NCBI GenBank assembly: GCA_007378955.1
Contig: VMGY01000003.1
Coordinates: 26,264-90,263, forward strand
DNA: 64,000 nucleotides
Source of the DNA: Parcubacteria group bacterium Athens0714_12
GTDB lineage: Bacteria; Patescibacteriota; Patescibacteriia; UBA2591; VMGY01
Reading direction: 5' to 3'
The notes under the pieces are model-generated. The model made no database searches, had not been told where the DNA came from, and worked only from the letters and a program-made list of their open reading frames with translations. Positions 3,013 to 60,814 of the stretch are shown here, one piece after another; the first letter of the stretch is position 1; the number at the start of each line of letters is the position of its first letter. The position numbers and the translations under genes were made by a program.

Positions 3013-3020
3013 TATCAATT

Positions 3021-3136
3021 CCTGGCATTGGCCTACTTTCCCACACCCACAATGGGGTAAGTATCATCGGCGCTGAGATGCTTAACTGCCGTGTTCGGAA
3101 TGGGAACGGGTGTTGCCATCTCGCTAGAAACACCAG
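3021..3136 (-). rRNA. rrf: 5S rRNA
   Basis: Reverse complement reads ...ccgaacacggcagttaagc...cgccgatgatac... matching the 5S consensus; located just 3' of 23S. Confidence 0.85.
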
Positions 3137-3520
3137 AAAAATTTATAAATGGTTTTTCCCGCTTAAATTTTTGAGTTAAAAAATATTTTAAAAGCCCAAA
3201 AATTTAAGCGGGAAAAATTGTATTCCAATAATTCTTGCGGTTAAAATGAGTTATTAGTACGGCTCAGCTCAATCCATTGCTGGACTTACACTTGCCGCCT
3301 ATCAAACCTCTAATCTAGAGGACTCTATGAAATCTAATCTTGGGTTAGGCTTCGCACTTAGATGCTTTCAGCGCTTATCCAAACCGAACTTAGCTACCCA
3401 GCGATGCCCTTGGCAGGACAACTGGTACACTAGAGGTTCGTCCTTCCCGATCCTCTCGTACAAGGGAAGAATCCCCTCAAATTTCGACGTCTACGGCAGA
3501 TAGGAGACCGAACTGTCTCA

Positions 3521-4261
3521 CGCATATTATTCCATTATTACTAATGGTATAGACTATATCTTCGCCCTTCTTTAATAGATAAAGTTAGGGTGAGCGGCGT
3601 ATGATAACAGTTTTAAATTAATTTTCTGCTATCTCATCTTAAAAAATTTTAAGAATCAGTCGTTACGGGGAAATAATTTATGTTCTTCTAAAAATTTTTT
3701 CACGACTTTGGTAGTATTAATTCTCTTCTTTGAATAATTCAATTCTCCGAATTTGTCTACCAATAAACTAGCTTTTAAAAATTTTTTAATATTAAATTTA
3801 CCTTTTAAAACCTTGTTTATTTTTAAAGCTAATTTTATGTGCTCTTTTTTTAGCCTAACATAAGGCGCTAATAATCCCAAAATTTCTATAACGGGTTTAA
3901 TTCCTACTATGGTATATTCCGTCATCATATCTTTTCTATCTCTGATATATCCGTACTTTAGAATACTTTTTAACCATAGAAGATGATTATGGCGATCAAT
4001 TTTCTGATAAAAAACTATACTGGCTCTTATTTGATAGCCATAAATATAATCTTTCCGTCTTACTAATTGAAACATTATACAACCATCACCATCTAAAAAA
4101 CCCGAAATATAAGATTTAACTTCTTTTGAAATTACAAACGACATAAAATATTTCTTCCCTCGGTATAGCCCTTACAAATCAGTTCTAAAGTTGTAAGGAT
4201 TCCACCGATATAGCCACTTTTATTATACCGCGTTTCCGCGGTAAGACGCAATGTAATTTAC
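3521..4261 (-). mobile_element. group I intron in 23S at about the E. coli 2585/2586-equivalent site, carrying a LAGLIDADG homing endonuclease gene
   Basis: 23S exon sequence ...GGGTTCAGAACGT | CGTGAGACAGTTCGG... is interrupted by about 740 nt containing an HE ORF; boundaries approximate. Confidence 0.6.
3656..4144 (-). CDS. LAGLIDADG homing endonuclease (intron-encoded)
   Basis: GFLDGDGCI LAGLIDADG motif; lies inside the 23S insertion. Confidence 0.8.
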   Translation of the reverse strand: MSFVISKEVKSYISGFLDGDGCIMFQLVRRKDYIYGYQIRASIVFYQKIDRHNHLLWLKSILKYGYIRDRKDMMTEYTIVGIKPVIEILGLLAPYVRLKKEHIKLALKINKVLKGKFNIKKFLKASLLVDKFGELNYSKKRINTTKVVKKFLEEHKLFPRND

Positions 4262-4323
4262 GTTCTGAACCCAGCTCGCGTATCGCTTTAATTGGCGAAC
4301 AGCCAAACCATTGGGAGCTTCTT

Positions 4324-4367
<44 letters not shown>

Positions 4368-5062
4368 TCGTCGATATGAACTCTTGGAGGAGATCAGCCT
4401 GTTATCCCCGGAGTAGCTTTTATCCGTTGAGCTTCCGCGCTCCTATGAGCAGCGGTCGGATCACTAAGTTCTGCTTTCGCACCTGCGCGGCTTGTAGGCC
4501 TTGCAGTCAAGCTGGCTTTTGCCTTTACGCGTCCAGCGCGGTTTCCATCCGCGCTAAGCCAACCTTTGTAAACTTCTCCGTTACCATTTAGGAGAAATCC
4601 GCCCCAGACAAACTACCTACCAGATACTGTCCCCGGACCGGTACCTGAATTCTTATTTTTAAATAAAAATCCAAATATCGGTCTAGGGTTAGAATTAAAA
4701 ATACACAAGGGTGGTATCTCACTGGCGGCTGCCTTGCGGCAACCTCCCACCTATTCTGAACATGAATATCCCTAATCCAATATCAAGCTATAGTAAAGCT
4801 TCACGGGGTCTTTTCGTCTAGCCGTAGATAAAGAGCATCTTCACTCCTCTTGCAATTTCACCGAGTCTCTCGTCAAGACAGTTCTCATGTTGTTATGCCA
4901 TTCGTGCAGGTCGTAACTCACACGACAAGGGATTTCGCTCATTTTTGTTATCCTTTTAATAAAGGAGTGTAGGCATTTCTGCTACACACTGTATGTCGCC
5001 ATACAGATCGGACTATATCTTCCCGCCTCATTGGCAGGTTTGGCGTATAGTCTCTGGGGATA

Positions 5063-5545
5063 CTAAAGCTTTCTTACCTTTTTACGATTCATCATGCTAA
5101 TTAAATTGGCAATTTTCTTAAAACCAGAATTTTCTAGGTGTTTTCCTTTTCTCATTAATCTTACTACTTGAACAAAAATCTTAAAATCTTTTTTCTTAGC
5201 CGTTTTCAAAAGATTTTTCTCAAAGAATGGAATAATTTTTTCTTCCAATTCTTTTAAATTTCTCACGCAATAACGATAAATGTTTTCTTTGTGATTATCC
5301 CATCTTCTATTAATTGTTATCGTTCCGCAATTGAAAAATTCTTTCATAAGATTTAAAACTGAAAAACTTTTTTTCCCTTGTGTTACCACAAATTCCGGGA
5401 AAACTTGCCAACCGTTTTTGGTTGTCGGATTTCTAAAAATACTAACCGTGAAACAGCCTTCTCCATCAGTAAATCCTACAACCCAATTAGCGAACTTTAG
5501 TCTTTCCTGCTGATTGTCTGCACTAGATGATTTTTCACTTGGCAT
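5063..5545 (-). CDS. LAGLIDADG homing endonuclease (intron-encoded)
   Basis: GFTDGEGCF LAGLIDADG motif; inside the 23S insertion. Confidence 0.8.
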   Translation of the reverse strand: MPSEKSSSADNQQERLKFANWVVGFTDGEGCFTVSIFRNPTTKNGWQVFPEFVVTQGKKSFSVLNLMKEFFNCGTITINRRWDNHKENIYRYCVRNLKELEEKIIPFFEKNLLKTAKKKDFKIFVQVVRLMRKGKHLENSGFKKIANLISMMNRKKVRKL

Positions 5546-5761
5546 AATTAAACTTTATAATATATGGTTTAATTATACCATAGTACCACTAGATACTCCA
5601 GACTTTCCAGCATATAGCCAAATTTTACTAAGGCTAGCAAAACTAACCATAGGACGATTCATTTGTGTTAGCTCATGGTCGCCCATGAGATCGGACTATA
5701 TCATATCACCATCTCTGATGATTTCGGCGTATAGTCTCTGAGGATCCTCTTAATTTAAATT

Positions 5762-5875
5762 TTATTCAATCCATTCCCTGTCAGTAAAACTAGAAAGAAA
5801 ATAACCAAAATAAAATGGAATATTTTTAATAAGAGTTTCCTGCTGATTGTCCCCACTGGACATTTTTTTACTCAT
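5762..5875 (-). pseudogene. truncated remnant of a second intron homing-endonuclease gene (37 codons)
   Basis: MSKKMSSGDNQQETL... parallels the N-terminus of the 5063-5545 HE (MPSEKSSSADNQQERL...), then terminates; the DNA is a diverged duplicate. Confidence 0.45.
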
Positions 5876-6198
5876 TAATTTTGAGTAATGCCAGATACAC
5901 GGGATATTCCAGCATACAGCCGAATTTTATAACTACAATTGTCTCATAGTTATCGCCGGCGTTCATCAGCGCTTAAGTTCAAAGCTTTGCCCTGTAAACA
6001 GGGCTAACCTCTCCCCTTAACGTTCTGACACTGGCCAGGCATCAGCCCCTATACTTCAGCTTTCGCTTTTGCAGGGACCTAAGTTTTTGGTAAACAGTCA
6101 CATGAGATCTTTTACTGCGGGTCGCACAAGGCGACCAATGCTTATTCCGAAGTTACGCACGTTGTATTGCCGAGTTCCTTAACGAGAGTTCTCTCGTA

Positions 6199-6236
<38 letters not shown>

Positions 6237-7401
6237 ACGGTACGGATTTGCCAAACCTAACTCTTCAAAAATTTTCTGGGAAAGTTGCTCATTTGTATCG
6301 CCTTGATAAATCAAAACTTTTCGCCCTTCATTGGGAAAACCCTCAAAGGACAAATGTAAATCCAATAATACACACAAATTACAAACCTTCGTCTTTCTGA
6401 AAAAAATTTGGCAAAGGGTAGGAATATTAACCTACTGTCCATCGTCTACGCCATTCGGCCTCGACTTAGGACCGCCTAACCCTGGGATAATAATTATTGC
6501 CCAGGAAACCTTAGGTTTTCGGTGGTCTGGATTCTCACCAGACTTTTTGCTACTCATACCAACATTCTCTCTTCCATAACCTCCACCGACTCTCGCGGGT
6601 CGGCTTCAATGATTATGGAATGCTCCCCTACCAACCACTGCTACGCAGTGGTTTTACATCTTCGGTATCAAACTTGAGCCCCGGTAAATTTTCGGCGCAA
6701 CGCGACTTGACCAGTGAGCTGTTACGCTTTCTTTGAAAGATGGCTGCTTCTAAGCCAACTTCCTGGTTGTCATAGTTGAATCACTGCCTTTAACACTTAG
6801 TTTGAATTTTGGGACCTTAGATGGTAATCTGGGCTGTTTCCCTTTTGACTAATGGAGCTTAGCCCCCATAGTCTGACTCCAGTCGTATAATGTTGCCGGA
6901 ATTCGGAGTTTGGTTGAATTAAGTAGGCAAAGCCATCTTAACTCATTCAGTGCTCTACCTCCGGACATCACGACCAGGCTAGCCCTAAAGCTATTTCGGG
7001 GAGAACCAGCTATCACGAGGTTCGATTGGAATTTCACCCCTAACCACAACTCATCCCAAAGTATTGCACGACTTACGGGTTCGGGCCTCCCCCCGATTTT
7101 CATCGGGGTTCACCCTGGCCATGGCTAGCTCACCTCGCTTCGGGTCAAATATGTATTACCTTACATTAAATTAGTGAATTAATTATTATTTATAATCAAC
7201 TCACTAATTATAATGTACGCGCGCTATTAACACTTGGTTTCCCTTCGACTCCACTGTTTTAAGCAGTTTAGTCAAGCAACACACATAAACTCGTTGGTTC
7301 ATTCTTCAATAGGCACGCCGTCACCCCGACTTAACGTCAGGGCTCCGACTCCTTGTAAGCATATGGTTTCAGATTCTATTTCATCGCCCTCACCGGGCTA
7401 T

Positions 7402-7437
<36 letters not shown>

Positions 7438-7794
7438 ATGGCCAAAAGTATTTAGCCTTAGGTCATAGTCGACCTGGTTTCAAATAGGATTTCACGTGTC
7501 CTATTTTACTTGAGAAAAATTACTAGAAGCACAAAACACTTTTCATTTACAGGACTTTCACCTTCTATGGTTCCGCTTTCCAACGGATTCAATTAAGTAA
7601 GTTTTGATTAATATTTACTTCCTCCGGTTTTCCTAGTCCCGGAACATAATCCTCTCGCAACATCCTATAAAACATTTTAGCCTAGGAGCCTTACCTTTTA
7701 CTTCAAGTTCCGCCCGAAGGCAGACTTTCCATAAAAGTTAGGTTTTATAAGATTTAGGCTGTTCCCCGTTCGCTCGCCACTACTAGGGGAATGC

Positions 7795-8133
7795 AAGTAA
7801 CTAAACATTGGTAACTGATTTTGAGGGGGGAGATTTCTCCCCCTCGAATTTTTATAAAAAACGGGAAAATTTTATTTCTGTTCCTTCGCCGATGCTAAAA
7901 ATTTTATTAGCATCGCCATTTATAGAACCGCAAAAAGAGACATAAGCGTATTTCTGTTGTTTTTTCTCTTCCACTTTTATTATTTTCGCTCTTATTTTCT
8001 CTTTTTTATTTCTTATCTTTAAAAAAATTTTCATACTGCGATTCGATAAATCTTTTACTTTTATCATTAAGCCCTCCTTTTTTCGTTTTATAAAAATAAT
8101 TAATCCTCAAAATCAGCTACCAAAATTAGTTAC
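7795..8133 (-). other. intervening-sequence (IVS)-like insertion in 23S domain I: about 30-bp inverted-repeat stem enclosing an AT-rich loop with a 71-aa ORF (7852-8067)
   Basis: cctcaaaatcag(c/t)taccaa..ttagttac at 8104-8133 and inverted at 7795-7827; GGGGGAGAtttcTCCCCC hairpin at 7826-7845; flanked by conserved 23S blocks. Confidence 0.45.
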
Positions 8134-8722
8134 TATTATTTTTTTTCTTTTCCTCCGCTTACTGAGATGTTTCACTTCAGCGGGTTTGCTTCGTCAACCT
8201 ATGAATTCAGTTAACGATACTTTGGTTTTAAATCAAAGTGGGTTTCCCCATTCGGAAATCCCCGGGTCAAAGGTTGCTTGCCACCTTACCGAGGCTTATC
8301 GCAGGCTGCTACGTCCTTCATCGCCTTTTGGTCTCAAGGCATCCACCATATGCATTAAAATAACCGCAAGAATTATTGAAATACAATAATTCTTTAAACT
8401 TATATAATGCTCTTTATATTTTTTTGATATGCTTTTTAATTGTCAATGTTCTTTCCTTAACTTCCAGAGATAAGAATATATCCTTATCTTTGAAAACTAT
8501 GGTATTAAAAAAACCGCTTTTAAGCGGCTCTGGACACTACCTAAAATATCCTTAATTTAACCGCTTAGGATTGAAAGTTGTATTAACTGTCGCATAATTA
8601 TTTCTATCTTTAAATAATTAATTTAATTAATGCTTCTTATTATATCAATATCTTTCTCTCTTTTCAATACTCGAAAATGTGAAAGATATGTGGATAACTA
8701 AGGATTATTTTTAGTTAGTTAT

Positions 8723-8750
8723 ATTATAAACCTTTAAAAATCTTTGTCAA
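8723..8750 (-). promoter_or_regulatory. sigma70-like promoter (TTGACA-16-TATAAT) upstream of 23S
   Basis: Minus strand: TTGACA (8745-8750), 16-nt spacer, TATAAT (8723-8728). Confidence 0.4.
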
Positions 8751-8792
8751 TAGTCAATTTGAAATTATTAGTTATAAGTTATGTGTTGAGTC

Positions 8793-8883: not shown

Positions 8884-8912
8884 AACAACCGACAACTAAC
8901 AACTGATAACTA
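8884..8912. repeat. AACTAACAACT/GTTGTTAGTT heptamer-type repeat block between tRNA-Leu and tRNA-Gly (5' leader side of tRNA-Leu)
   Basis: caaccgacaactaacaactgataactaa. Confidence 0.5.
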
Positions 8913-8921
8913 AAATAAATT

Positions 8922-8996
8922 TGGAGCGGGTAAGGGGAGTCGAACCCCTTTCACCGGCTTGGAAAGCCGAGGTAATACCGGTATACGATACCCGCC
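8922..8996 (-). tRNA. tRNA-Gly (anticodon TCC), CCA encoded
   Basis: Acceptor gcgggta/tacccgc; anticodon stem ccggc/gccgg; loop ttTCCaa. Confidence 0.75.
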
Positions 8997-9352
8997 TAAA
9001 AATAAAAATTATTTCTCGCTCAATCTAAACGTTCTTCAGTTCCCGCGTCAATCCATTGCCCTTGATAAATAAAAGCTGATAATTTTCTTTGTTTAACAAT
9101 TTCAGAAAAAATATCTTTTTCAATAGAAAATTTATCTTTATTAATATTTTTAAAAAATTTCGGCGAAAGACTATAAAAAACCTACCTTGATAAATCCTTT
9201 TTCTCCGGCTAAAATAATTACTTTCATCCCGTTAGAAATTAAATATTTAAAAATATATGTACTCCTATTAGGAATTTATTATAAAAATGGAATTTCTAAG
9301 GGGATTCATAAAAAACTTTTAATTCGCCTTCGCTACGCTACGGCGAAATAAA

Positions 9353-9424
9353 TCGGGGTACAGGGATTCGAACCCAGACTAAATCCTCCCAAAGGACTTG
9401 TGCTAGCCATTACACTATACCCCG
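9353..9424 (-). tRNA. tRNA-Pro (anticodon TGG), no encoded CCA
   Basis: Acceptor cggggta/taccccg; T-loop ttcgaat; anticodon loop ttTGGga. Confidence 0.75.
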
Positions 9425-9436
9425 TTGCTTATTAAA

Positions 9437-9817
9437 CTATATTACATCTCTGCTGTTTTTTTCAGAATGTAATATCCTATGACAGTTTGCGCAAACAACA
9501 ACACATTTTTTTATCTCTTTTTTGATCCGATTAAAACCTTGTCCTTCTGTCAAGGCAGCCCCCACGCTAAACTTTTTATCGTTATCATTATCGTGATGAA
9601 AATCAAGTACTCTAGGATCAGCAATGCCACATTTGCTGCATTTCTGTTTTCTCTTATAATCAGCAATCCATCGGCGATACTTCTGCCTAAGTTCTTTTTT
9701 TGCGATACGATAGCAAGATTTACATTTGTGGCGCCGGTAGACTTTATTTTTAATCGTTAAAGCAACGCCAAATTCTGACTCTGGATAACGTTTATTACAA
9801 TATTTACATATTCTCAT
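9437..9817 (-). CDS. HNH homing endonuclease (free-standing, inside the tRNA cluster)
   Basis: Multiple CxxC pairs, HH..N..CANCH HNH motif (CVVVCANCHRILH); 126 aa. Confidence 0.8.
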   Translation of the reverse strand: MRICKYCNKRYPESEFGVALTIKNKVYRRHKCKSCYRIAKKELRQKYRRWIADYKRKQKCSKCGIADPRVLDFHHDNDNDKKFSVGAALTEGQGFNRIKKEIKKCVVVCANCHRILHSEKNSRDVI

Positions 9818-9900
9818 ATATAGTTATTATAACATTTTGAACCCATATGTAAAAGGTTCAAAATAATCGTTATTTCATTTTTAAATCAAGTAAATAACTC

Positions 9901-9975
9901 TGGTGCCGAGGGGGAGGATCGAACTCCCGACACAATGATTTTCAGTCATTTGCTCTACCACTGAGCTACCTCGGC
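9901..9975 (-). tRNA. tRNA-Phe (anticodon GAA), CCA encoded
   Basis: gccgaggtagctcagtggtagagc..ctGAAaa..ttcgatc; 75 nt. Confidence 0.85.
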
Positions 9976-10066
9976 GCGAAATAACTAATAACTTACAACC
10001 TACAACTAACAACTCAATGATAAATTTTATTGTAAGTTGTAGGTTGTAAGTTGTGAGTTAATAAAT
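9976..10066. repeat. palindromic block of GTTGTAAGTTGTAGGTTGTAAGTT-type heptamer repeats (hairpin) in the leader of tRNA-Phe
   Basis: cttacaacctacaactaacaactcaa ... ttgtaagttgtaggttgtaagttgtgag are reverse complements of each other. Confidence 0.6.
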
Positions 10067-10068
10067 AA

Positions 10069-11870: not shown

Positions 11871-13409
11871 AAGAGAGCTTTTTTCTTTTTCCAGATGTTT
11901 TTTTAAAAATTCAAATGCTTGTTTTTTACTTTTTACTCTTTTTGCCAATTGCTCTTCTCTTAAAATTTTTAATAATTCGCCGATTTGTTTACTTGGTTTT
12001 AATTTAAATTTTTTCATTATCTCATGGCCGTCTAAAATTGATTCAGGTAGTTTTTCTTTTTCTTTGCTCATCGCCTGCAAATTTTTTATTCTCTCTGCCA
12101 TTTTATAAAAATTGGTTAAATTTGTCTTGCCTTTATCAGGAATACTGGCGATCGCGTCAATAAAACCTAATTTTAATAAATCTTGACCATTAAATTTAGG
12201 ATTAAAAAAATATTTTTCCAAGGTGCTATTTTTTATTCCATCAACATTGTTGTTAAGAAAAAACATATGCGCTCTGACCAACCAGACAACTCTGTCTATG
12301 TCAATTTGAAATTCCTCGCTTGAAGAAAGCTTTAAACGTTCGCAAATTTTTTTAGCTAAATCAGCGCCAATCTGGTCATGGTCATTAAACCTGATTCTGT
12401 CAACAATGTCTTTTTTCGGCGTTTTTATCGTGTAGGGTTTGCCAATGTCATGAAAAATAATTCCCAAAATCAATTCTATCCCCGGCTTTTCACCGCCGAA
12501 TTCATTTTTAAATTCTTTTGAATTTAATTTTTCCAAAGCTAATTTAGTATGCGACCAAACATTGCCTTCTGAATGGAAATTTTTCGGCTGGGAACATTTT
12601 TTCATTTTTAAAAGTTCCGGCATTAAAACTTTAAAAGCGCCGCTTTGGTCATATAAATCAAAGGCCTTAACTGGATTCAAATAAAAAGCCTTTAAAAATT
12701 CTTTGGCGATAATTTCATAAGAAACAATTCTCTCTCCCTTGATTTCAGAATTTAATTTGGGAATAAACTTTTTAATCGCTGACCAAGTTTTATTTTCTAT
12801 TTTAAAATCTAATTGACAGGCAAATCTCAAAGCGCGAAGCATCCTTGAATAATCTTCTTTAAATCTTTCTTCTGGCTTGCCGACAGTTCTAATCACTTTT
12901 TTTTGTAAATCTTTTAGTCCGTTAAAAGAATCAATTAGTTGTTGTAAGTTGCGGGTTGTAAATTGCGGGTTATTTATTGCAAAGGCATTAATCGTAAAAT
13001 CTCTTCTGCTTAAATCTTCTTTAATCTCCAAATCGGGATTGCTCTGCACTTCCACATCCTTATAACCGCCGGTGCCAAAAGCATGCTCTTTTCTGGGCAA
13101 AGCAATATCCAAAGGTGTTCCTATTTTTTTACCTTTAGGCAAAAATTTAAAAACGCCGAAATTTTTACCAACCAAAAAAACTTTTCCTTCTTTAGTTAAA
13201 AAATTTTCCAAATCATTCGCGGAAACTTTTCTAACCACGAAATCATAATCCCCTTCATCCGGCAATCCCAACAAAGCATCCCTGACCGCGCCGCCAACCA
13301 AATAAACTTCGCTTTGGGAAAATTTTTTGTTCAATTTTTCGGCAAAATCCAAAAGACCTTCCTTTTCCAAACGTTTAATAAATTGAGAAATAATTTTTTG
13401 GCAATTCAT
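11862..13409 (-). CDS. cca: CCA-adding tRNA nucleotidyltransferase (Pol-beta-like head plus HD domain)
   Basis: GGAVRD..DxD nucleotidyltransferase motif and HD domain (FHDIGK). ORF-track N-terminal 37 codons are read-through of tRNA-Val; start reset to MNCQ at 13409. Confidence 0.8.
   Translation of the reverse strand: MNCQKIISQFIKRLEKEGLLDFAEKLNKKFSQSEVYLVGGAVRDALLGLPDEGDYDFVVRKVSANDLENFLTKEGKVFLVGKNFGVFKFLPKGKKIGTPLDIALPRKEHAFGTGGYKDVEVQSNPDLEIKEDLSRRDFTINAFAINNPQFTTRNLQQLIDSFNGLKDLQKKVIRTVGKPEERFKEDYSRMLRALRFACQLDFKIENKTWSAIKKFIPKLNSEIKGERIVSYEIIAKEFLKAFYLNPVKAFDLYDQSGAFKVLMPELLKMKKCSQPKNFHSEGNVWSHTKLALEKLNSKEFKNEFGGEKPGIELILGIIFHDIGKPYTIKTPKKDIVDRIRFNDHDQIGADLAKKICERLKLSSSEEFQIDIDRVVWLVRAHMFFLNNNVDGIKNSTLEKYFFNPKFNGQDLLKLGFIDAIASIPDKGKTNLTNFYKMAERIKNLQAMSKEKEKLPESILDGHEIMKKFKLKPSKQIGELLKILREEQLAKRVKSKKQAFEFLKKHLEKEKSSLLF
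12940..12975. repeat. GTTGTAAGTTGCGGGTTGTAAATTGCGGGTT 14-mer tandem repeat, antisense and in frame within cca
   Basis: Encodes NNPQFTTRNLQQ in cca; same motif family as the tRNA-leader repeats. Confidence 0.55.
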
Positions 13410-14716: not shown

Positions 14717-14737
14717 ATTTTTATATAAAAGTTTTAG

Positions 14738-14765
14738 GTTGTTAATTGTAAGTTGTGGGTTGTTA
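14738..14765. repeat. GTTGTTAATTGTAAGTTGTGGGTTGTTAGTT repeat immediately 5' of tRNA-Ala
   Basis: Same heptamer family as 9976-10066, in transcript orientation directly abutting the tRNA 5' end. Confidence 0.55.
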
Positions 14766-14842
14766 GTTATTTATTGGGCTGTTAGCTCAGCTGGCTAGAG
14801 CGCCTGCTTTGCAAGCAGGAGGTCACCGGTTCGAATCCGGTA
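14766..14842 (+). tRNA. tRNA-Ala (anticodon TGC), CCA encoded
   Basis: gggctgttagctcagctggctagagc..ttTGCaa..ttcgaat; 77 nt. Confidence 0.9.
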
Positions 14843-14852
14843 CAGTCCACCA

Positions 14853-21011: not shown

Positions 21012-21034
21012 AAAATTAAATAAAAATTACAATT

Positions 21035-21270
21035 ATCAAACCCCAAATCACAAACAAATACCAAATTCTAATGACCAAAATTCAAAACTGTTTGGAATTT
21101 ACCTGCCCGACTTCGCCTTGACTGATTTTATCCTCTAAATTTTTTAAATTATTATAATTAGCGAAAACTATCAATCCTGTTTATTAGAAACGGCGAAGTC
21201 AAGGCGGGCGGGTAATTTGGGATTTTGAATTTGTTTGATATTTGTAATTTGAAATTTGGGATTTAAAATT
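21035..21270. repeat. about 235-bp inverted-repeat element: AT-rich AAATTCAAA/CCAAAT arms with a GC-rich core hairpin (cccgacttcgccttgac / gtcaaggcgggcggg)
   Basis: Arms 21040-21100 and 21211-21270 are reverse complements; core arms at 21098-21124 and 21191-21216. Confidence 0.5.
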
Positions 21271-26099: not shown

Positions 26100-26370
26100 G
26101 ATAAAAAAATGTCTAATTCCTAATTTCTAATGCCAAATTAATGCTCAATGCCAAAATGTCCAATCTTTAATTAATCTTATTCGGTTATTGGTCATTTAAT
26201 CGTTAAGATTTTTTATTAGAAATTAGAAATTTGACATTAGGTATTAAATAACTTTGAATTACGAAATAGGCTGAGTAGGGGGCGCGCTCATATCTTTTTT
26301 GCAGACGCGGCGATTAGTCCGCAGCGCAAAAAAGATATGAGCCCTAAATAATGAATTTCGTAATTCAAAC
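26100..26370. repeat. AT-rich inverted-repeat element (ctaatttctaatgccaaat arms) adjoining a nested GC-rich hairpin (26252-26370)
   Basis: attcctaatttctaatgccaaatt / aattagaaatttgacattaggtat inverted; ctttgaattacgaaat..atttcgtaattcaaac outer stem; gggggcgcgctcatatcttttttgc..gcaaaaaagatatgagccc inner stem. Confidence 0.5.
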
Positions 26371-29646: not shown

Positions 29647-29702
29647 AATTAATAAAATTTCTAATATCTAATATCTAAATAAAATGTCAAAATCCTAATG
29701 CC

Positions 29703-36367: not shown

Positions 36368-36441
36368 ATGAAGTTATGAAATTCCAAATCTCAAATCACA
36401 AATTTCAAACAAATTCAAAATCCCAAATTCTAAATTCCAAA
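36368..36441. repeat. AT-rich inverted-repeat arm (aaattccaaatctcaaatcacaaatttcaaacaaattcaaaatcccaaatt), partner at 36805-36856
   Basis: Reverse complement of 36805-36850 agaatttgtgatttgtttggaatttggtgcttgaaatttggaattt. Confidence 0.55.
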
Positions 36442-36804
36442 CTACTTACTATTAGTCAAAATAGAATTAAAAATTTTAATAAATTCTGAGGCTTCTTGAA
36501 TTAAAAATTTACCTTCGTTGTTGCTACTTAAATTATTAGTATCAATAATTAATCTAAGCCAATAGCGACTTTCTTTTGATTCTTTCCTGGAAATTTTTAT
36601 TCTCATCATAAAGTCTTTTTTACTTAATGATTCATTCGCTTCAATATAGTTTGCCCCAACTGAACCACTGGCTCGAACTACTTGTCTAATTAACTCAATG
36701 TTTTCTACTGTTCTTACTAATTTTTTGCAAAATTCTATTACTCGTTTAGTAAAATTAAAAGTTCTTTCTTCTAAATCGTAATTTTGGTTTTGTATTTTGG
36801 TCAT
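36442..36804 (-). CDS. four-helix-bundle protein ('23S rRNA intervening-sequence protein' family)
   Basis: VRASGSVGANYIEANESLSKKDF..RISRKESKESRYWLRL matches the family signature (GANY.EA....S.KDF...S..E..E..YWL). Confidence 0.75.
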   Translation of the reverse strand: MTKIQNQNYDLEERTFNFTKRVIEFCKKLVRTVENIELIRQVVRASGSVGANYIEANESLSKKDFMMRIKISRKESKESRYWLRLIIDTNNLSSNNEGKFLIQEASEFIKIFNSILTNSK

Positions 36805-36856
36805 TAGAATTTGTGATTTGTTTGGAATTTGGTGCTTGAAATTTGGAATTTAATCT
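36805..36856. repeat. AT-rich inverted-repeat arm, partner of 36368-36441
   Basis: See 36368-36441. Confidence 0.55.
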
Positions 36857-44208: not shown

Positions 44209-45021
44209 TTATTTTAATTTCTCGCTAAGCCTGATCCAATCTTCCACGCTCAAATCCTGCGCCCTGATTTTCGGATTAAAATTCAATTTTTTAAATATTT
44301 CTTTTATCTCTTCATTGTTCATTTTTAATCCCGTGGCTAAGTTATTGTGTAATTGCTTCCGCCTGTTTGAAAAACCTATTTTTACTATCTTAAAAAAAAC
44401 TTTTTCATCTATTCTTGATTCTTGGCTTTTAATTTTTAATCTGATAATCGCGCTGTCCACTTTTGGCTCGGGATAAAAACTTTTTTTAGAGACCAAGCTG
44501 ATAATCTCCGGTTGGCTGTAAAACTGGACTGCCACGGAAAGCAAAGACATTTTACCCGGCCTTGCCGCGATTCTTTCGGCAACTTCTTTTTGAACTAATA
44601 AAACCATTTCTTCGGGCTTTATTTTGTTTTCTAAAAATTTCCGCAAAAAATTGCCGGTAATAGAATAAGGAATATTAGCGACAATCTTAAAGTTATGAGT
44701 TATAAGTTGCTGGTTGTAAGTTAATTTCAAAATGTCTCCTTCAATAATCTCCACATCTTTATAATCCTTCAAAATATCTTTCAAGGCTCTGATTATATTT
44801 TTATCAATTTCCACGGCCATGACTTTTTTAACTCTTTTGGCTAATGCTTGCGTTAAAATACCAAACCCCGGGCCAACTTCCAAAATTAAATCATCTTTTT
44901 TTAAATCAGCCGCTTCAATTATTTTATCTAAAATTTTATTGTCAATTAAAAAATTCTGCCCTTTCCAAGACTTGGGCAGAAGATTATATTTTTGGCAAAG
45001 AAATTTAATATCATTTAACAT
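44209..45021 (-). CDS. rsmA: 16S rRNA (adenine1518/1519-N6)-dimethyltransferase
   Basis: LEVGPGFGILT SAM motif, NIPYSIT, full KsgA architecture. Confidence 0.85.
   Translation of the reverse strand: MLNDIKFLCQKYNLLPKSWKGQNFLIDNKILDKIIEAADLKKDDLILEVGPGFGILTQALAKRVKKVMAVEIDKNIIRALKDILKDYKDVEIIEGDILKLTYNQQLITHNFKIVANIPYSITGNFLRKFLENKIKPEEMVLLVQKEVAERIAARPGKMSLLSVAVQFYSQPEIISLVSKKSFYPEPKVDSAIIRLKIKSQESRIDEKVFFKIVKIGFSNRRKQLHNNLATGLKMNNEEIKEIFKKLNFNPKIRAQDLSVEDWIRLSEKLK
44690..44725. repeat. AAGTTATGAGTTATAAGTTGCTGGTTGTAAGTT repeat antisense and in frame inside rsmA
   Basis: Encodes LTYNQQLITHNF; same motif family as the tRNA-leader repeats. Confidence 0.5.
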
Positions 45022-46248: not shown

Positions 46249-48714
46249 TTAGTTCGCGACGATGTTTATTAATCTGTTGTTAATATAAATTATCTTTTTT
46301 ATTTCTCTGTTTTCAAGCCATTTTTTAATTTTTTCCCTTTCCAAGACCATTTTTTTAACTTCTTCTTCTGAAATATTTATTTTTATTTCCATTTTATCCC
46401 TTACCTTGCTATTAATCTGAATTATCAATTCTATTGTTTCATCAATAATTAAATCTGGATTGTAATCAGGCCATTTTTCTTCAAAAATAGTTTTCTCTTC
46501 CGGCAATCCTTTGAGCTGATGCCATAATTCTTCACTTAAATGAGGCGCGAGCGGCGCTAAAAGTAAAATTAAAATTTCCAAATCATGAGTTGTAAGTTGT
46601 AAGTTGTAAGTTGTAAGTTTATTTACGTATTCCATTAAACAAGCGATCATGGTATTGAATTTAAATTTTTCTATATCTTCGCTCACTTTTTTAATTGTCT
46701 GATGCCTTAATTTCTCTATTTCTAAATTTGGTCGCTGGTTGTTGGTCGCGAGTTGTTGGCTGACTAAATCCCAAACTTTATTTAAAAATCTATAAACCCC
46801 AATCACGCCTCTATCCTGCCATTCAGCGTCTTGTTCCGGCGGCGACATAAAAAGTTCATACAAACGCATTGTGTCCGCGCCGTATTTTATAAAAAATTCA
46901 TTCGGATTGACGACATTGCCTTTTGATTTGCTCATTTTCTCTCCGTTTCTATAAATCATTCCTTGGTTGAATAATTTTAAAAATGGCTCTTCAAATTCTA
47001 TTATTCCCAAATCAAACATTATTTTGCTAAAAAAACGGGCGTAAAGCAAATGCAAAACCGCGTGTTCTATGCCGCCGACATATAAGTCTGTTGGCAGCCA
47101 ATATTTAATTTTTTTCTTTTCAAAAATTTCTTCTGAATTTTTCGGGTCAACATACCTTAAATAATACCAAGCCGAGTCAACAAAAGTATCCATAGTATCT
47201 GTTTCTCTTTTCGCTTCAGCGCCGCATTTAGGACATTTTGTTTTTACAAATTTTTCGGCTTTTGCTAAAGGGGATTTTTCGCCTAAAGGCTTAAAATCTT
47301 CAATTTCCGGCAAAACGAGCGGCAAATCGCTTTCAAGTACAGGAATTTCACCGCAATGCTCGCAATAAATAATCGGTATTGGCACGCCCCAGTATCTTTG
47401 CCGTGAAATAAGCCAATCCCTTAATTTATATTTTTTAGTCCCAAAGCCAATGCCTTTATCTTCCAGCCATTTGGTCATTTCTTCCTGCGCCCTTTCGGAG
47501 GATAAACCATTAAATTTTTCCGATTCAATCAAAACGCCGTCTTCTTCAAAAGCGCCGTTTTCAATAGTTGACCTGCCATCTTCTGATTTAATCACTTCAA
47601 TAATTTCCAAGCTATGCTTTTCCGCGAAAAAATAATCTCTTTGGTCATGCGCGGGCACGGCCATAATCGCGCCTGTGCCGTATTCAGCCAAAACATAATC
47701 GCCGATATAAACAGGAACTTGTTTCTGATTAAAAGGATTTAGCGCGTAAGCGCCGGTAAAAACTCCGGTTTTTTCTTTTTCCTCCGACATTCTTTCTATT
47801 TCTGTTTTTTCTTTCGCTTGCTTGATATATTCTTCAACTTCTTTTTTCCGGCTCTCGGCAGTTAGAGATTCCACCAAAGGATGTTCCGGCGATAAAACCG
47901 CGTAAGTCATTCCGAAAACCGTATCAACGCGCGTGGTATAAACTCTGATTACCTCTTCTTTTTGTCCTCCCTTTTCATCCAAAATCGGCATTTCAAATTC
48001 CACGCCATAGCTTCGGCCAATCCAATTTCTTTGCATAATTTTTACTTTTTCCGGCCAATCCACCAAATCCAAATCTTCAATCAAACGGTCGGCGTATTGA
48101 GTAATTTTTAAAAACCATTGATTAAGTTCTTTTTTTGTAATTTCAGAACAACATCTTTCGCACTTTCCATCCTTAACCTGCTCATTTGCCAAAACAGTCT
48201 GGCAGGAAGGGCACCAATTAACCAAAGCCATTTTTTTATAAGCCAATCCTTTTTTATAAAATTGCAGAAAAAGCCATTGAGTCCATTTATAATATTCCGG
48301 CTGCGAAGTATTGACTTCTTTTTGCCAATCATAAAGATAACCGGCATTTTTTAATTGTTCTTTGATGATGGAAATATTTTTTTCCGTGCTGATTCTGGGA
48401 TGAACGCCGGTTTTTAAAGCATAATTCTCCGCCGGTAATCCGAAAGCGTCCCAACCCATGGGATGCAGGACATTATATCCTTCCATTAATCTTTTTCTGG
48501 CAATCACATCGCTGTAAGTATAGCCGCGCATATGCCCGACATGAAGGCCTTCGCCGGAAGGATAAGGAAACATATCCAAACAATAAAACTTTGATTTTTT
48601 ATTATCCTCTGAAGTTTTATTAATTCCTATTTTATTCCATATCGCCTGCCATTTTTTTTCAATTTTTTGAGCTTCGTATTTCACCCCGTTAGAAATATTT
48701 TCTTTTTTAGACAT
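46249..48714 (-). CDS. leuS: leucyl-tRNA synthetase
   Basis: HMGH (HVGHMRGY) and KMSKS motifs, CP1 editing domain. Confidence 0.9.
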   Translation of the reverse strand: MSKKENISNGVKYEAQKIEKKWQAIWNKIGINKTSEDNKKSKFYCLDMFPYPSGEGLHVGHMRGYTYSDVIARKRLMEGYNVLHPMGWDAFGLPAENYALKTGVHPRISTEKNISIIKEQLKNAGYLYDWQKEVNTSQPEYYKWTQWLFLQFYKKGLAYKKMALVNWCPSCQTVLANEQVKDGKCERCCSEITKKELNQWFLKITQYADRLIEDLDLVDWPEKVKIMQRNWIGRSYGVEFEMPILDEKGGQKEEVIRVYTTRVDTVFGMTYAVLSPEHPLVESLTAESRKKEVEEYIKQAKEKTEIERMSEEKEKTGVFTGAYALNPFNQKQVPVYIGDYVLAEYGTGAIMAVPAHDQRDYFFAEKHSLEIIEVIKSEDGRSTIENGAFEEDGVLIESEKFNGLSSERAQEEMTKWLEDKGIGFGTKKYKLRDWLISRQRYWGVPIPIIYCEHCGEIPVLESDLPLVLPEIEDFKPLGEKSPLAKAEKFVKTKCPKCGAEAKRETDTMDTFVDSAWYYLRYVDPKNSEEIFEKKKIKYWLPTDLYVGGIEHAVLHLLYARFFSKIMFDLGIIEFEEPFLKLFNQGMIYRNGEKMSKSKGNVVNPNEFFIKYGADTMRLYELFMSPPEQDAEWQDRGVIGVYRFLNKVWDLVSQQLATNNQRPNLEIEKLRHQTIKKVSEDIEKFKFNTMIACLMEYVNKLTTYNLQLTTHDLEILILLLAPLAPHLSEELWHQLKGLPEEKTIFEEKWPDYNPDLIIDETIELIIQINSKVRDKMEIKINISEEEVKKMVLEREKIKKWLENREIKKIIYINNRLINIVAN
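46588..46619. repeat. (AGTTGTA) x4.5 perfect heptamer tandem repeat, antisense and in frame inside leuS; a second 14-mer pair lies at 46729-46764
   Basis: agttgtaagttgtaagttgtaagttgtaagtt encodes LTTYNLQLTTH; ggtcgctggttgttggtcgcgagttgttgg encodes QQLATNNQRP. Confidence 0.6.
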
Positions 48715-51399: not shown

Positions 51400-51568
51400 A
51401 ATTGGACTTCGCGATTTTTTGCGGGGGGATTTTTTCGGAAAAATGCGTTCGGACTAATTCAAGAATACTGCACCAAGGATAACTTATAACTAAATTACGA
51501 AATACTAGGAATGCCGCATCCTCCCTCCTTTCCAAAAAATTGGAAATTAATATCATCAATTTTATTTA

Positions 51569-53902: not shown

Positions 53903-53940
53903 AAACAACTTATAACTGATAACTAACAACTGATAACAAT
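53903..53940. repeat. AACTTATAACTGATAACTAACAACTGATAACAAT repeat abutting the 5' end of tRNA-Ile
   Basis: Same family as 8884-8912, 9976-10066 and 14738-14765. Confidence 0.55.
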
Positions 53941-54123
53941 AAGATAACAAAAAAAATTGGCTCTGGCAAGACCAATTTTCTATTTTGACAACTAAAAAGT
54001 GATTGTAAGAATGCCTATTGTATTTAAACGAAGTTAATCAAAGATTAAACTTTAGCTTTTTATTTAAATTAAACAAAAAACTATCGACAACGGCAATTAT
54101 AAATTGCCGCCTTTTTCTCCCTA

Positions 54124-55660
<1,537 letters not shown>

Positions 55661-59870: not shown

Positions 59871-59980
59871 AAATTAAAAAATTCTAAATCCAATATCAAA
59901 ATTCGAAATTTAAAATCAAATTATTTTTATATTTTAACATTTAAAAAATATATAAACAAGAAGAGAGAGTTATTCTCTCT

Positions 59981-60127: not shown

Positions 60128-60814
60128 TTACCATTTTTTCTTTTTTAAAGCATTTTCCGCCGCTTTTACTTGCGCTTCCTGCTTGCTCATTCCCTCCCCT
60201 GAAGCGATTAATTTATCTTCTAAAAATACTCCTATTTTAAAATATTTTGCATGGTCGGGACCGCTTTCTTCCAAAACATTGTAAATGGGCGTAATCTTAA
60301 ATTTTTCTTGAGATATTTCCTGGAATTTGGTTTTCGGGTCTATGTGAAGCTCATGTTTTAAAATATGCGGGAGCTTAAAAATCAGTTTTTTTTCAATAAA
60401 ATCAAAAGTCTTTTTCAATCCCTGGTCTAAAAAAATCGCCCCCACCAGGGCTTCAAAACCATCGGCTAAAATATATTCTCTGGCCTTGCCCTTATCTTTT
60501 GCCTCTCCCTTGCTAAGATAAAGATACTGGCCCAAATCCAAATCTTTGGCTAAAACAGAAAGCGTTTTGGCATTAACCAAGGCGGCCCGCCAATTAGTTA
60601 AATCTCCTTCTGGATTTTTATAATTTTTATAAAGATATTCCGTCACAATCAATTCCAAAACCGCGTCGCCTAAAAATTCCAATCTTTCATTATGTTCCAA
60701 ATGGAAATTGGGATGCTCGTTCAAATATGAGCGATGGACTAAAGATTGGCTTAATAAATTTTTGTCTTTAAATTTTAATCCTAAAATTTTTTCTAATTTG
60801 GAAAAATCTTTCAT
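60128..60814 (-). CDS. rnc: ribonuclease III
   Basis: ERLEFLGDAVLEL RNase III signature and C-terminal dsRBD. Confidence 0.9.
   Translation of the reverse strand: MKDFSKLEKILGLKFKDKNLLSQSLVHRSYLNEHPNFHLEHNERLEFLGDAVLELIVTEYLYKNYKNPEGDLTNWRAALVNAKTLSVLAKDLDLGQYLYLSKGEAKDKGKAREYILADGFEALVGAIFLDQGLKKTFDFIEKKLIFKLPHILKHELHIDPKTKFQEISQEKFKITPIYNVLEESGPDHAKYFKIGVFLEDKLIASGEGMSKQEAQVKAAENALKKKKW

What the first reader, a model, noticed from the sequence alone, without database searches (positions are those of the whole stretch)
8884..10066. GTTGTAAGTT-type heptamer repeat blocks form the immediate 5' leaders of tRNA genes
In transcript orientation, blocks of (A)GTTGT(A/T)AGTT(A/G)T repeats abut the 5' ends of tRNA-Leu(TAA), tRNA-Phe, tRNA-Ala and tRNA-Ile. 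The coordinates are 8884-8912, 9976-10066 (a perfect palindrome), 14738-14765 and 53903-53940. Four independent tRNA genes share the same leader repeat, one copy forming a hairpin. This suggests a dedicated promoter, processing or binding-site element rather than chance; TTGTAA resembles a -35 hexamer.
Basis: seen in the sequence. Interest (0 to 1): 0.65.

Follow-up and report, generated by a model that had tools for sequence, protein, structure and literature searches.

The report
Heptamer-repeat hairpins flanking tRNA genes
Runs of a 7-base repeat (RGTTRTN) form the flanks of several tRNA genes in this Parcubacteria genome and in other uncultured bacteria. They are predicted to pair into long RNA hairpins that probably help cut tRNA precursors apart, a role not described for this kind of repeat in the papers I could search.

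Summary
Tandem RGTTRTN heptamers end 1-4 nt before tRNA-Leu(taa), Phe, Ala and Ile, and precede tRNA-Glu just outside the window. A three-unit pattern matches 11 times against 0 in shuffles. These lie just after tRNA-Leu(taa) and tRNA-Val(tac), so the Val-Phe spacer is a 31-nt-arm hairpin (90% complementary, not perfect). The Leu leader and trailer pair around that tRNA.

A metagenome scan found 46 loci with the same arrangement, in several Patescibacteria lineages and candidate division WOR-1. Among 59 arrays not used as search seeds, 35 flank tRNAs in one polarity (G/U-rich 5', A/C-rich 3') and 1 in the opposite. Random placement gives 2.2.

The arrays are most likely transcribed pre-tRNA flanks, not promoters. 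They sit inside tRNA clusters and leave no room for a -10 box and start site. My best reading is double-stranded processing or insulating modules, probably RNase III substrates (the gene is in the window), built by replication slippage.

The same family also occurs inside three coding genes, in loops that tolerate heptamer arrays in homologs.

The nearest published kin are TAACTGA repeats and the heptamer-built stem of the Nostoc trnL intron. I rate it a new variant of a known kind. Function is inferred, not shown.

The parts
8884..8911 (-). Four RGTTRTN units forming the 5' leader of tRNA-Leu(taa) (also the Gly-Leu spacer); ends 4 nt before the tRNA
8763..8790 (+). Complementary (A/C-rich in the transcript) array in the 3' trailer of tRNA-Leu(taa); predicted to pair with the leader 8884-8911 in a stem that encloses the tRNA
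   Evidence: MFE fold (z -4.65 for the whole 261 nt)
9980..10014 (-). Five RGTTRTN units forming the 5' leader of tRNA-Phe; 3' arm of the spacer hairpin
10028..10062 (+). Complementary array forming the 3' trailer of tRNA-Val(tac); 5' arm of the spacer hairpin
9976..10068 (-). Whole Val(tac)-Phe spacer. It folds into one hairpin (-34.3 kcal/mol, z -9.1) that starts 8 nt after tRNA-Val and ends 6 nt before tRNA-Phe
   Evidence: arms of 31 nt, 90% complementary
14730..14771 (+). Six (partly degenerate) units forming the 5' leader of tRNA-Ala(tgc); only a weak partner (one AACAACT unit about 45 nt after the tRNA)
53904..53938 (-). Four to five units forming the 5' leader of tRNA-Ile(gat), downstream of the 16S rRNA gene; pairs only weakly with a degenerate 7-periodic trailer
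   Evidence: promoter-like hexamers 53969..53941 just upstream
51478..51491 (-). Two-unit complementary block about 80 nt downstream of tRNA-Arg(gcg); membership uncertain
46581..46622 (+). Perfect (AGTTGTA)x4.6 inside the LeuRS gene, antisense to the coding strand (peptide LTTYNLQLTT); same heptamer family, probably tolerated slippage in a variable loop
44691..44725 (+). Same family inside the KsgA/RsmA gene, antisense to the coding strand (peptide LTYNQQLITHN), in a loop that carries heptamer-encoded peptides in many homologs
12940..12974 (+). Degenerate array of the same family inside the CCA-adding enzyme / poly(A) polymerase-family gene, antisense to the coding strand (peptide PQFTTRNLQQ)
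60128..60814 (-). RNase III gene (Ribonuclease_3 plus dsrm domains): candidate enzyme for the double-stranded arrays. The link is an inference.

Best explanation
The blocks are tandem arrays of a 7-nt unit (RGTTRTN) that make up the transcribed flanks of tRNA genes. G/U-rich copies run up to a few nucleotides before the mature 5' end. Complementary A/C-rich copies begin a few nucleotides after the 3' end of the same or the preceding tRNA.

In the precursor RNA the two kinds pair in one of two ways:
- The trailer of one tRNA pairs with the leader of the next, giving a spacer hairpin of about 5 units (about 35 bp) per arm.
- The leader pairs with the trailer of the same tRNA, giving a stem that encloses the cloverleaf.

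I infer that these long A-U/G-U duplexes act as processing and insulating modules. They keep spacer RNA from interfering with tRNA folding. They also offer a double-strand-specific nuclease, most plausibly RNase III (encoded in the window), a site to separate tRNAs before RNase P and 3' trimming finish the ends. The arrays themselves arise and change length by replication slippage, as is proposed for heptamer simple-sequence repeats.

Shown here: the sequence anatomy, the polarity, the tRNA association, the predicted pairing and the occurrence in other lineages.
Inferred: that the arrays are transcribed, that they are cleaved, and which enzyme does it.
For: Anatomy in the window:
- Five tRNAs of this genome (Leu-taa, Phe, Ala, Ile, plus Glu just outside the window) have leader arrays. 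Two (Leu-taa, Val-tac) have complementary trailers.
- The Val-Phe spacer folds into one hairpin, -34.3 kcal/mol, z -9.1.
- The Leu-taa leader and trailer pair around the tRNA in the minimum-energy structure.

Generality:
- AGTTRTNRGTTRTNRGTTRTN{8,24}TAGCTCAG hit 46 metagenome loci, about 34 next to tRNAs called by ARAGORN and of many isotypes.
- After de-duplication there are 37 loci with 90 tRNAs. Of 59 arrays that were not search seeds, 15 are 5' sense, 20 are 3' antisense, 1 is 5' antisense and 0 are 3' sense. Random placement gives 2.2, with a maximum of 8 in 2000 trials.
- In L213, the three spacers between the first four of five clustered tRNAs are each [A/C array]-loop-[G/U array] hairpins of -33.7 to -36.5 kcal/mol, z -8.4 to -9.3.
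- In 18 hairpins both arms are about 5 units long.
- About two thirds of array leaders have a strong complementary partner.
- The loci come from Paceibacterota, Wolfebacteria-like, Moranbacteria-like and other Patescibacteria, and from WOR-1.

Specificity:
- The same tRNA-anchored pattern gives 0 hits in viral contigs, although at least 120 four-unit arrays exist there.
- Other intergenic heptamer arrays in the window belong to different families.

Enzyme: an RNase III gene lies in the window.

Turnover with retention: related loci (L221, L242, L243) differ in unit number and variants but keep the array.
Against: - No RNA data. Transcription of the arrays and any cleavage are inferred.
- About a third of array leaders, including Ala, Ile and Glu in this genome, have no convincing partner. 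Pairing therefore cannot be the whole story.
- A pure structural role does not explain why one heptamer family and one polarity are used in distant lineages.
- Nine of the 14 tRNAs seen in this genome lack leader arrays, so the element is dispensable for tRNA maturation as such.
- RNase III is not a known general tRNA-processing enzyme in model bacteria (my own knowledge).
- Arrays of the same family sit in coding genes, where a processing role is unlikely.
Confidence: 0.5

Rival explanations
1. The G/U-rich leader array is a single-stranded RNA platform for a protein that reads roughly 7-nt units. Candidates are a cold-shock-domain protein, S1, or the RNase P protein. Binding would chaperone or mark the precursor, and the complementary trailers would be secondary.
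For: - Leader arrays are more common than trailer arrays (54 against 22).
- A third of leader arrays lack a partner.
- Polarity is strict, and one sequence family is shared across phyla.
- Arrays end 1-9 nt from the RNase P site.
- MacGregor proposed S1, Csp or CsrA binding for the related TAACTGA repeats.
- A CSD gene lies about 80 nt downstream of the array-bearing tRNA-Glu.
- From memory, cold-shock domains cover 6-7 nt.
Against: - No binding data exist.
- Where partners exist, the duplexes are very stable (z about -9) and would compete with single-strand binding.
- Unit variants (A/G at two positions, any base at the seventh) are loose for a specific protein site.
- CSD and S1 proteins are universal, but the arrays are restricted to certain lineages.
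Confidence: 0.2
2. The arrays are selectively neutral or selfish by-products. Heptamer simple-sequence repeats would be generated by replication slippage, possibly spread as small palindromic units, and accumulate wherever they are tolerated, including tRNA flanks.
For: - Period 7 is over-represented in this genome in general (6 blocks against 0.1 expected), with several families.
- Heptamers are the commonest long simple-sequence repeats in prokaryotes and are attributed to slippage (Mrazek 2007, as summarised in PMC4679880).
- Unit number changes between related loci.
- Arrays occur in tolerant loops of LeuRS and KsgA in many Patescibacteria.
- L229 shows a partial tRNA duplication next to an array.
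Against: - Neutral accumulation does not predict a 35:1 polarity relative to the tRNA.
- It does not predict abutment within a few nucleotides of both mature ends.
- It does not predict one family at tRNA flanks and different families at the array-bearing protein-gene intergenic sites.
- It does not predict a narrow arm length of about 5 units.
- It does not predict recurrence in distant lineages.
Confidence: 0.17
3. The arrays are promoters or promoter-proximal DNA sites for tRNA transcription, as the first reader suggested (TTGTAA/TTGTTA as a -35 box).
For: - TTGTTA, TTGTAA and TTGTCA resemble TTGACA, and TATAAG resembles TATAAT.
- In the Ile leader, TTGTTA-19-TATAAG-6-G(+1 of the tRNA) can be read directly from the sequence.
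Against: - No hexamer pair inside the leader arrays passes the sigma-70 scan.
- Spacing is wrong (19, 9 or 15 nt) in three of the four leaders. Phe allows TTGTTA-16-TATTAG, but that -10 box lacks the final T.
- Arrays sit between closely spaced tRNAs of one cluster (window, L213, L218).
- Arrays end 1-9 nt before the mature 5' end.
- The genome has canonical promoters, for example a 12/12 TTGACA-16-TATAAT at 8750..8723.
- Promoter-like hexamers lie upstream of the Ile and Glu arrays.
Confidence: 0.03
4. Excised leader or trailer fragments act in trans. They would base-pair with the complementary arrays inside the mRNAs of LeuRS, KsgA and the CCA-adding enzyme, coupling tRNA precursor flux to expression of tRNA and rRNA maturation enzymes.
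For: - All three clear coding-region arrays in the window lie in tRNA- or rRNA-related genes. In the mRNA they read as the complement of the leaders.
- The homologous LeuRS site carries a perfect (CAGTTAT)x4 in the opposite orientation in one relative whose DNA was read, and nine more relatives carry the matching peptide.
- RNase III is present.
Against: - The orientation inside coding regions is forced. The sense orientation of these units contains stop codons, the same logic as for TAACTGA.
- The KsgA loop carries heptamer-encoded peptides of several unrelated families in homologs. This points to tolerated slippage rather than targeting.
- Many genes in this window are translation-related, so three out of three is weak evidence.
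- There are no expression data.
Confidence: 0.05

Closest known systems
TAACTGA direct repeats of marine Beggiatoaceae, cyanobacteria and some Bacteroidetes (MacGregor 2015, PMC4679880)
   Same: - They are tandem heptamers of the same sequence family. TAACTGA read on the other strand is TCAGTTA, i.e. the AGTTATC unit present in the Leu and Ile leaders.
- Sets are short, 2-6 units.
- They are mostly intergenic and directly abut the downstream gene.
- Copies inside ORFs occur only in the stop-free orientation.
- Distribution across phyla is patchy.
   Different: - There the repeats precede protein start codons, and the mRNA reads TAACTGA. Here they precede tRNAs in the opposite orientation (the RNA reads AGUUAUC or AGUUGUA).
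- Here they are mirrored by complementary arrays after tRNA 3' ends. That paper found only one inverted pair.
- A tRNA association was not reported there.
- The host lineages differ (Patescibacteria, WOR-1).
Long simple-sequence repeats with 7-nt units in prokaryotes (Mrazek et al. 2007, as summarised in PMC4679880)
   Same: - They are tandem heptamers longer than chance allows.
- They are sporadic among lineages.
- They are attributed to replication slippage.
   Different: That is a general mutational category with no positional rule. Here one family is tied to tRNA ends with a fixed polarity and a complementary partner.
P6b stem-loop of the Nostoc tRNA-Leu(UAA) group I intron, built from heptanucleotide repeats (PMC4476775)
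   Same: - It is an RNA hairpin whose two arms are tandem 7-nt repeats and their complements.
- Its length changes in steps of 7 or 14 nt.
- It lies in a tRNA gene.
   Different: - It lies inside an intron, not in the leader or trailer.
- The motifs differ (TDNGATT, NNTGAGT).
- It is limited to Nostocales.
Processing stems of bacterial rRNA operons, where the 5' and 3' flanks of 16S and 23S pair and are cut by RNase III (my own knowledge)
   Same: - Flanks of a stable RNA pair into a long duplex that encloses the mature RNA.
- A double-strand-specific nuclease is encoded in the genome.
   Different: - Here the enclosed RNA is a tRNA, or the duplex bridges two tRNAs.
- The duplex is made of a repeated heptamer shared by many genes.
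- Cleavage has not been tested.
REP/BIME-type and MITE-like intergenic palindromic elements (my own knowledge)
   Same: Both are dispersed intergenic inverted repeats that form RNA hairpins.
   Different: - These arrays have no fixed unit length or conserved full-length copy.
- They vary by heptamer steps.
- Half-elements occur alone.
- They are strictly positioned relative to tRNA ends.

Membership tests
Heptamer long simple-sequence repeats (Mrazek-type) | Head-to-tail copies of a 5-11 nt unit, longer than expected by chance in that genome | tested here: met
   TRF rows at 8884-8913, 9983-10014, 10030-10059, 14729-14768, 46588-46619 and 53907-53937. The three-unit pattern matches 11 times against 0 in shuffles. 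Period 7 gives 6 blocks against 0.1 expected, while periods 4-12 other than 7 and 8 are at or near background.
TAACTGA-type repeats (MacGregor 2015) | The unit is TAACTGA (TCAGTTA on the other strand); related heptamers are rarely repeated | tested here: not met
   AGTTATC units occur in the Leu and Ile leaders, but the dominant units are AGTTGTA, AGTTGTT and GGTTGTA. Units are mixed within one array. This is the same broad family, not the same unit.
TAACTGA-type repeats (MacGregor 2015) | Located directly upstream of protein start codons, in the TAACTGA-sense orientation | tested here: not met
   Here the arrays lie upstream of tRNAs and in the opposite orientation relative to transcription.
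TAACTGA-type repeats (MacGregor 2015) | Copies inside ORFs occur only in the orientation without stop codons | tested here: met
   All three coding-region arrays are antisense to the gene. The sense strings contain TAA or TGA (logic).
Sigma-70 promoter | -35 and -10 hexamers 16-18 nt apart, with the start site upstream of the mature RNA | tested here: not met
   No qualifying pair lies inside the leader arrays on the tRNA strand. Arrays end 1-4 nt before the tRNA in the window. They also lie between tRNAs of one cluster.
RNase III processing stem | A duplex of about 20 bp or more, formed by sequences flanking the mature RNA | tested here: inconclusive
   Met for the Val-Phe spacer (31-nt arms; -34.3 kcal/mol), for Leu-taa and for about two thirds of array leaders elsewhere. 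Not met for Ala, Ile and Glu.
RNase III processing stem | Staggered cleavage of both strands by RNase III | not testable with these tools
   Only the gene is seen (60128-60814). RNA end mapping or an enzyme assay is needed.
Intrinsic (Rho-independent) terminator | A short G+C-rich hairpin followed by a run of U | tested here: not met
   The array hairpins are A-U/G-U rich, about 31-38 bp long, and are followed by a tRNA rather than a U run. None was reported by the terminator scan.
Known RNA families (Rfam 15) | A match to a curated covariance model | tested here: not met
   The only hit is a sub-threshold, chance-like match of the Val-Phe hairpin to a plant miRNA precursor model (37 bits against a gathering score of 80).

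The most novel reading that the evidence does not exclude
The heptamer arrays are a lineage-spanning RNA code for tRNA biogenesis. A dedicated factor, or RNase III itself, would recognise the polar G/U-rich and A/C-rich arrays to time tRNA release. The excised array fragments would then pair in trans with the complementary arrays embedded in the mRNAs of LeuRS, KsgA and the CCA-adding enzyme. That would give a feedback loop between tRNA precursor flux and the enzymes that mature tRNA and rRNA in reduced-genome bacteria.
Probability: 0.06. Interest if true: 0.85.

Novelty: new variant of a known kind. Interest (0 to 1): 0.6.

Why it matters
How ultra-small, uncultured bacteria (Patescibacteria/CPR) process their stable RNAs is largely unknown. 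A repeat-built, polar, double-stranded module around tRNAs, recurring in several CPR lineages and in WOR-1, would be a new type of pre-tRNA signal. It would also give a function to heptamer repeats, whose role has been debated since they were noticed in cyanobacteria and Beggiatoaceae.

It also offers a simple, searchable marker (RGTTRTN arrays abutting tRNAs). With it the question becomes testable using metatranscriptomes and a single recombinant enzyme.

If the arrays turn out to be neutral slippage products, the strict polarity would still need a mutational explanation.

Tried and rejected
- **Promoter reading.** Rejected on position and on the hexamer scan.
- **Terminator reading.** Rejected: the hairpins have no G+C-rich stem and no U run.
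- **Known RNA family.** Rfam at gathering and at E-value thresholds found nothing relevant.
- **Close relatives through LeuRS in genome contigs.** The source genome itself was not returned, so no orthologous tRNA loci came from it. It did show heptamer arrays of other families in several Patescibacteria loci.
- **Universality in Patescibacteria.** None of 36 tRNAs in the named genome loci, 16 of them in other Patescibacteria, has any array next to it. The feature is lineage-restricted.
- **Phage origin.** Four-unit arrays are common in viral contigs, but none of the first 120 is within 300 nt of a tRNA. The tRNA-anchored pattern has 0 viral hits.
- **The LeuRS array as an insertion.** Rejected: the segment has the same length as in homologs.
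- **Coding-region arrays as evidence of targeting.** Weakened: the KsgA loop carries heptamer-encoded peptides of several families in homologs.
- **Correlation of arm lengths in hairpins.** Uninformative, because nearly all arms are about 5 units.
- **Literature searches.** I searched for heptamer repeats together with tRNA, CPR or RNase III and found no description of this arrangement in the held library.
Full report
**Source and setting**

The window is 36% G+C. It is near-identical (99.9-100%) to contigs of a metagenome-assembled genome named "Parcubacteria group bacterium Athens1014_10" (GCA_007376655.1) and to ENA and Logan assemblies.

It carries 12 tRNA genes. It also has a split rRNA set: 16S at 54125-55666(-) followed by tRNA-Ile, 23S at 4210-8365(-) with group I introns, and 5S at 3020-3137(-). 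dnaA lies at 61915-63270 and an RNase III gene at 60128-60814.

**Checking the observation**

In transcript orientation, the sequences directly upstream of tRNA-Leu(taa), Phe, Ala and Ile are runs of 4-6 heptamers of consensus RGTTRTN. They end 1-4 nt before the mature 5' end.

The three-unit pattern matches 11 times in 64 kb, against none in 100 dinucleotide-preserving shuffles. Blocks with at most one mismatch number 8 against 0 expected, and with at most two mismatches 11 against 0.15.

Of ten blocks of two or more units, six flank tRNAs in one consistent polarity. From the window sizes I estimate about 0.1 expected by chance.

The 7.9 kb of the same genome that lies beyond the window start holds two more tRNAs. 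One of them, tRNA-Glu(ttc), again has a three-unit leader array.

- The "perfect palindrome" has 31-nt arms that are 90% complementary.
- Half of that palindrome is the trailer of tRNA-Val(tac), not a leader.
- A complementary block after tRNA-Leu(taa) (8763-8790) and three blocks inside coding genes were missed.

**Anatomy**

The G/U-rich copies (RGTTRTN in the RNA) lie 5' of tRNAs. The A/C-rich complements lie 3' of tRNAs.

The whole 93-nt Val-Phe spacer folds into one hairpin of -34.3 kcal/mol (z -9.1). It starts 8 nt after tRNA-Val and ends 6 nt before tRNA-Phe.

For tRNA-Leu(taa), the minimum-energy structure pairs leader with trailer in a stem that encloses an intact cloverleaf.

For Ile the partner is a degenerate 7-periodic trailer. 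For Ala it is a single unit beyond a small terminator-like hairpin. Both pairings are weak.

**Is this particular to one genome?**

A metagenome scan for three units followed within 8-24 nt by the conserved tRNA D-arm string TAGCTCAG returned 46 loci. About 34 of the hits are next to tRNAs called by ARAGORN, of many isotypes. Several of the remainder look like tRNAs with insertions that ARAGORN did not call.

The count alone does not prove association, because I do not know how many arrays the collection holds. I therefore used the arrays in those loci that were not search seeds.

After collapsing near-identical loci there are 37 loci (268 kb, 90 tRNAs) and 59 such arrays:

| Position and orientation | Count |
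|---|---|
| 5' of a tRNA, sense | 15 |
| 3' of a tRNA, antisense | 20 |
| 5' of a tRNA, antisense | 1 |
| 3' of a tRNA, sense | 0 |
| Elsewhere | 23 |

Random placement puts 2.2 arrays in the two favoured positions, with a maximum of 8 in 2000 trials.

In L213, the three spacers between the first four of five clustered tRNAs are each an [A/C array]-loop-[G/U array] hairpin of -33.7 to -36.5 kcal/mol (z -8.4 to -9.3). The hairpins have single mismatches, mostly at the variable seventh position. That locus has the same Ser(tga)-Ser(gct)-Arg(gcg) order as the window.

In 18 hairpins both arms are about 5 units long. Roughly two thirds of array leaders have a strong partner upstream or in their own trailer.

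Exact-protein look-ups place the loci in Paceibacterota, Wolfebacteria-like, Moranbacteria-like and other Patescibacteria. Two loci come from candidate division WOR-1, which is outside the CPR.

The feature is not universal. None of 36 tRNAs in named genome loci, 16 of them in other Patescibacteria, has an array next to it. In viral contigs the arrays are common but never abut a tRNA.

**What it is not**

*A promoter.*
- Arrays sit between tRNAs of one cluster.
- They run up to the mature 5' end.
- They contain no hexamer pair that passes the sigma-70 scan on the right strand.
- The genome does use canonical promoters, for example a 12/12 match at 8750..8723, right after the Leu(taa) trailer and upstream of the 23S gene.
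- Promoter-like hexamers lie just upstream of the Ile and Glu arrays. That would make those arrays the whole transcribed leader. These are consensus matches only.

*An intrinsic terminator.* There is no G+C-rich stem and no U run.

*A known Rfam family*.

**Most likely mechanism (inference)**

The arrays are transcribed pre-tRNA flanks. Their pairing produces long A-U/G-U duplexes next to, or around, the tRNA.

Such duplexes would keep spacer RNA from invading the tRNA fold. They are also the natural substrate of RNase III, which the genome encodes. RNase P and 3' trimming would finish the ends.

The fixed order in spacer hairpins fits co-transcriptional insulation. The A/C-rich strand is made first and is inert. 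The G/U-rich strand is made second and is captured at once. This is my reasoning, not a result.

The arrays probably arise and resize by replication slippage, as proposed for heptamer repeats in general. Related loci differ in unit number and variants while keeping the array.

I give this model 0.5. Its main weakness is that a third of leader arrays are unpaired. Structure alone also does not explain why one family and one polarity recur in distant lineages.

The main rival (0.2) is a single-strand protein platform on the leader. Neutral or selfish slippage products get 0.17, because they do not predict the polarity, the abutment, or the narrow arm length.

**Arrays inside coding genes**

LeuRS (a perfect AGTTGTA x4.6), KsgA and the CCA-adding enzyme carry the same family antisense to the coding strand. 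That orientation is forced, because the sense strings contain stop codons. The same logic was noted for TAACTGA repeats.

The LeuRS segment is not an insertion. Ten other Parcubacteria LeuRS proteins have a QLSVISYQL-type peptide at the same site. That peptide is the exact translation of (CAGTTAT)n in the sense orientation. The DNA of one of them is a perfect CAGTTAT x4.

The KsgA loop holds heptamer-encoded peptides of several families in many homologs.

I read these as tolerated slippage in surface loops. A trans-acting link to the tRNA flanks is not excluded, but it is unlikely.

**Relation to what is known**

- The closest published relatives are the TAACTGA direct repeats of Beggiatoaceae, cyanobacteria and Bacteroidetes. 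They share the sequence family, the set size and the ORF-orientation rule. They precede start codons, lie in the opposite orientation, and have no reported tRNA link or complementary partner.
- The category is the general one of heptamer long simple-sequence repeats.
- The heptamer-built P6b hairpin of the Nostoc tRNA-Leu(UAA) intron has the same construction principle but lies inside an intron, with other motifs.
- Functionally, the nearest analogy is the RNase III processing stem of rRNA operons (my own knowledge).
- Full-text searches found no description of heptamer arrays flanking tRNAs in Patescibacteria or elsewhere. That library is incomplete.

**Verdict**

This is a real, non-random, tRNA-associated element that recurs in several lineages. 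It is a new variant of a known kind of repeat, with a plausible but untested role in pre-tRNA processing. Interest 0.6.

Noticed in passing
window 46581-46622; L254 about 6080-6110; proteins P0015-17, P0032, P0034, P0042, P0044, P0052, P0059, P0064: One loop of LeuRS (after LMEYVN/LMILTN) carries an RGTTRTN-family array in this genome, antisense to the gene (peptide LTTYNLQLTT). Ten other Parcubacteria homologs carry it in the sense orientation (QLSVISYQL-type peptide, the translation of (CAGTTAT)n; the DNA was read in one of them). No array-encoded peptide occurs anywhere else in the 120 homologs.
   Followed up: yes
window 44691-44725; KsgA homologs P0150-P0268: The KsgA loop between GDILK and YKIVANLPY is a hot spot for heptamer-encoded peptides of several families across Patescibacteria. 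Examples are KLQITNYKLQ, the translation of (AAATTAC)n, and LQPTSYNLQ in P0236/P0250 from antisense GGTTGTA.
   Followed up: partly
window 21024-21071 / 21217-21264; 26108-26138 / 26208-26238; 36376-36441 / 36789-36854: Other heptamer families (AAATTCC/TTTGGAA, CTAATTC/ATTAGAA, AATTTGG) form long inverted pairs in intergenic regions between protein genes. One pair, with 66-nt arms, encloses a 120-aa gene of the 23S_rRNA_IVP family. The other two enclose 145 nt and 69 nt of unannotated sequence.
   Followed up: partly
window 59878-59920, 61622-61671, 29656-29678: Further tandem heptamers (AAAATTC, AAATCCT, AATATCT). The 61.6-kb one lies in the intergenic region upstream of dnaA, where the replication origin is expected.
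   Followed up: no
window 3020-8365 and 53826-55666, 14776-14852: The rRNA genes are unlinked: 16S with tRNA-Ile, and 23S-5S about 46 kb away, with tRNA-Ala alone on the other strand. The 23S gene is 4156 bp long, with two group I intron matches and one LAGLIDADG ORF (5063-5545). A second LAGLIDADG ORF (3656-4144) lies between 23S and 5S.
   Followed up: no
window 8723-8750 (-): A perfect sigma-70 consensus (TTGACA-16-TATAAT) lies directly after the tRNA-Leu(taa) trailer array and about 360 nt upstream of the 23S 5' end. It is probably the 23S promoter.
   Followed up: no
window 44811-44875: These 65 bases are absent from the NCBI assembly (GCA_007376655.1), where KsgA is called as two fragments (50 and 191 aa). 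The window and a Logan assembly have the intact 270-aa gene. This is either an assembly difference or a population variant.
   Followed up: partly
window 50235-50735 and 9437-9817: A NYN-domain (PIN-like nuclease) gene sits between tRNA-Ser(gct) and tRNA-Arg(gcg). A cysteine-rich 126-aa ORF with no Pfam match sits between tRNA-Phe and tRNA-Pro.
   Followed up: no
L233 about 3262-3320; L241 about 3740-3810; L235 about 2310-2520; L229 3206-3290: Array-flanked tRNA-like sequences that ARAGORN did not call. They appear to carry insertions: a hairpin in the D-loop (L233), and sequence after the anticodon (L241, L235). L229 has a duplicated tRNA 5' fragment followed by a second array.
   Followed up: no
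L255 21570-21650: In the closest named relative (Candidatus Kuenenbacteria HGW-1), the trailer of tRNA-Arg(tct) is a tandem heptamer of a different family (TTATAAT-like, at least 5 units).
   Followed up: no
L206 3444-3641: A cold-shock-domain gene lies about 80 nt downstream of the array-bearing tRNA-Glu in the same genome.
   Followed up: no
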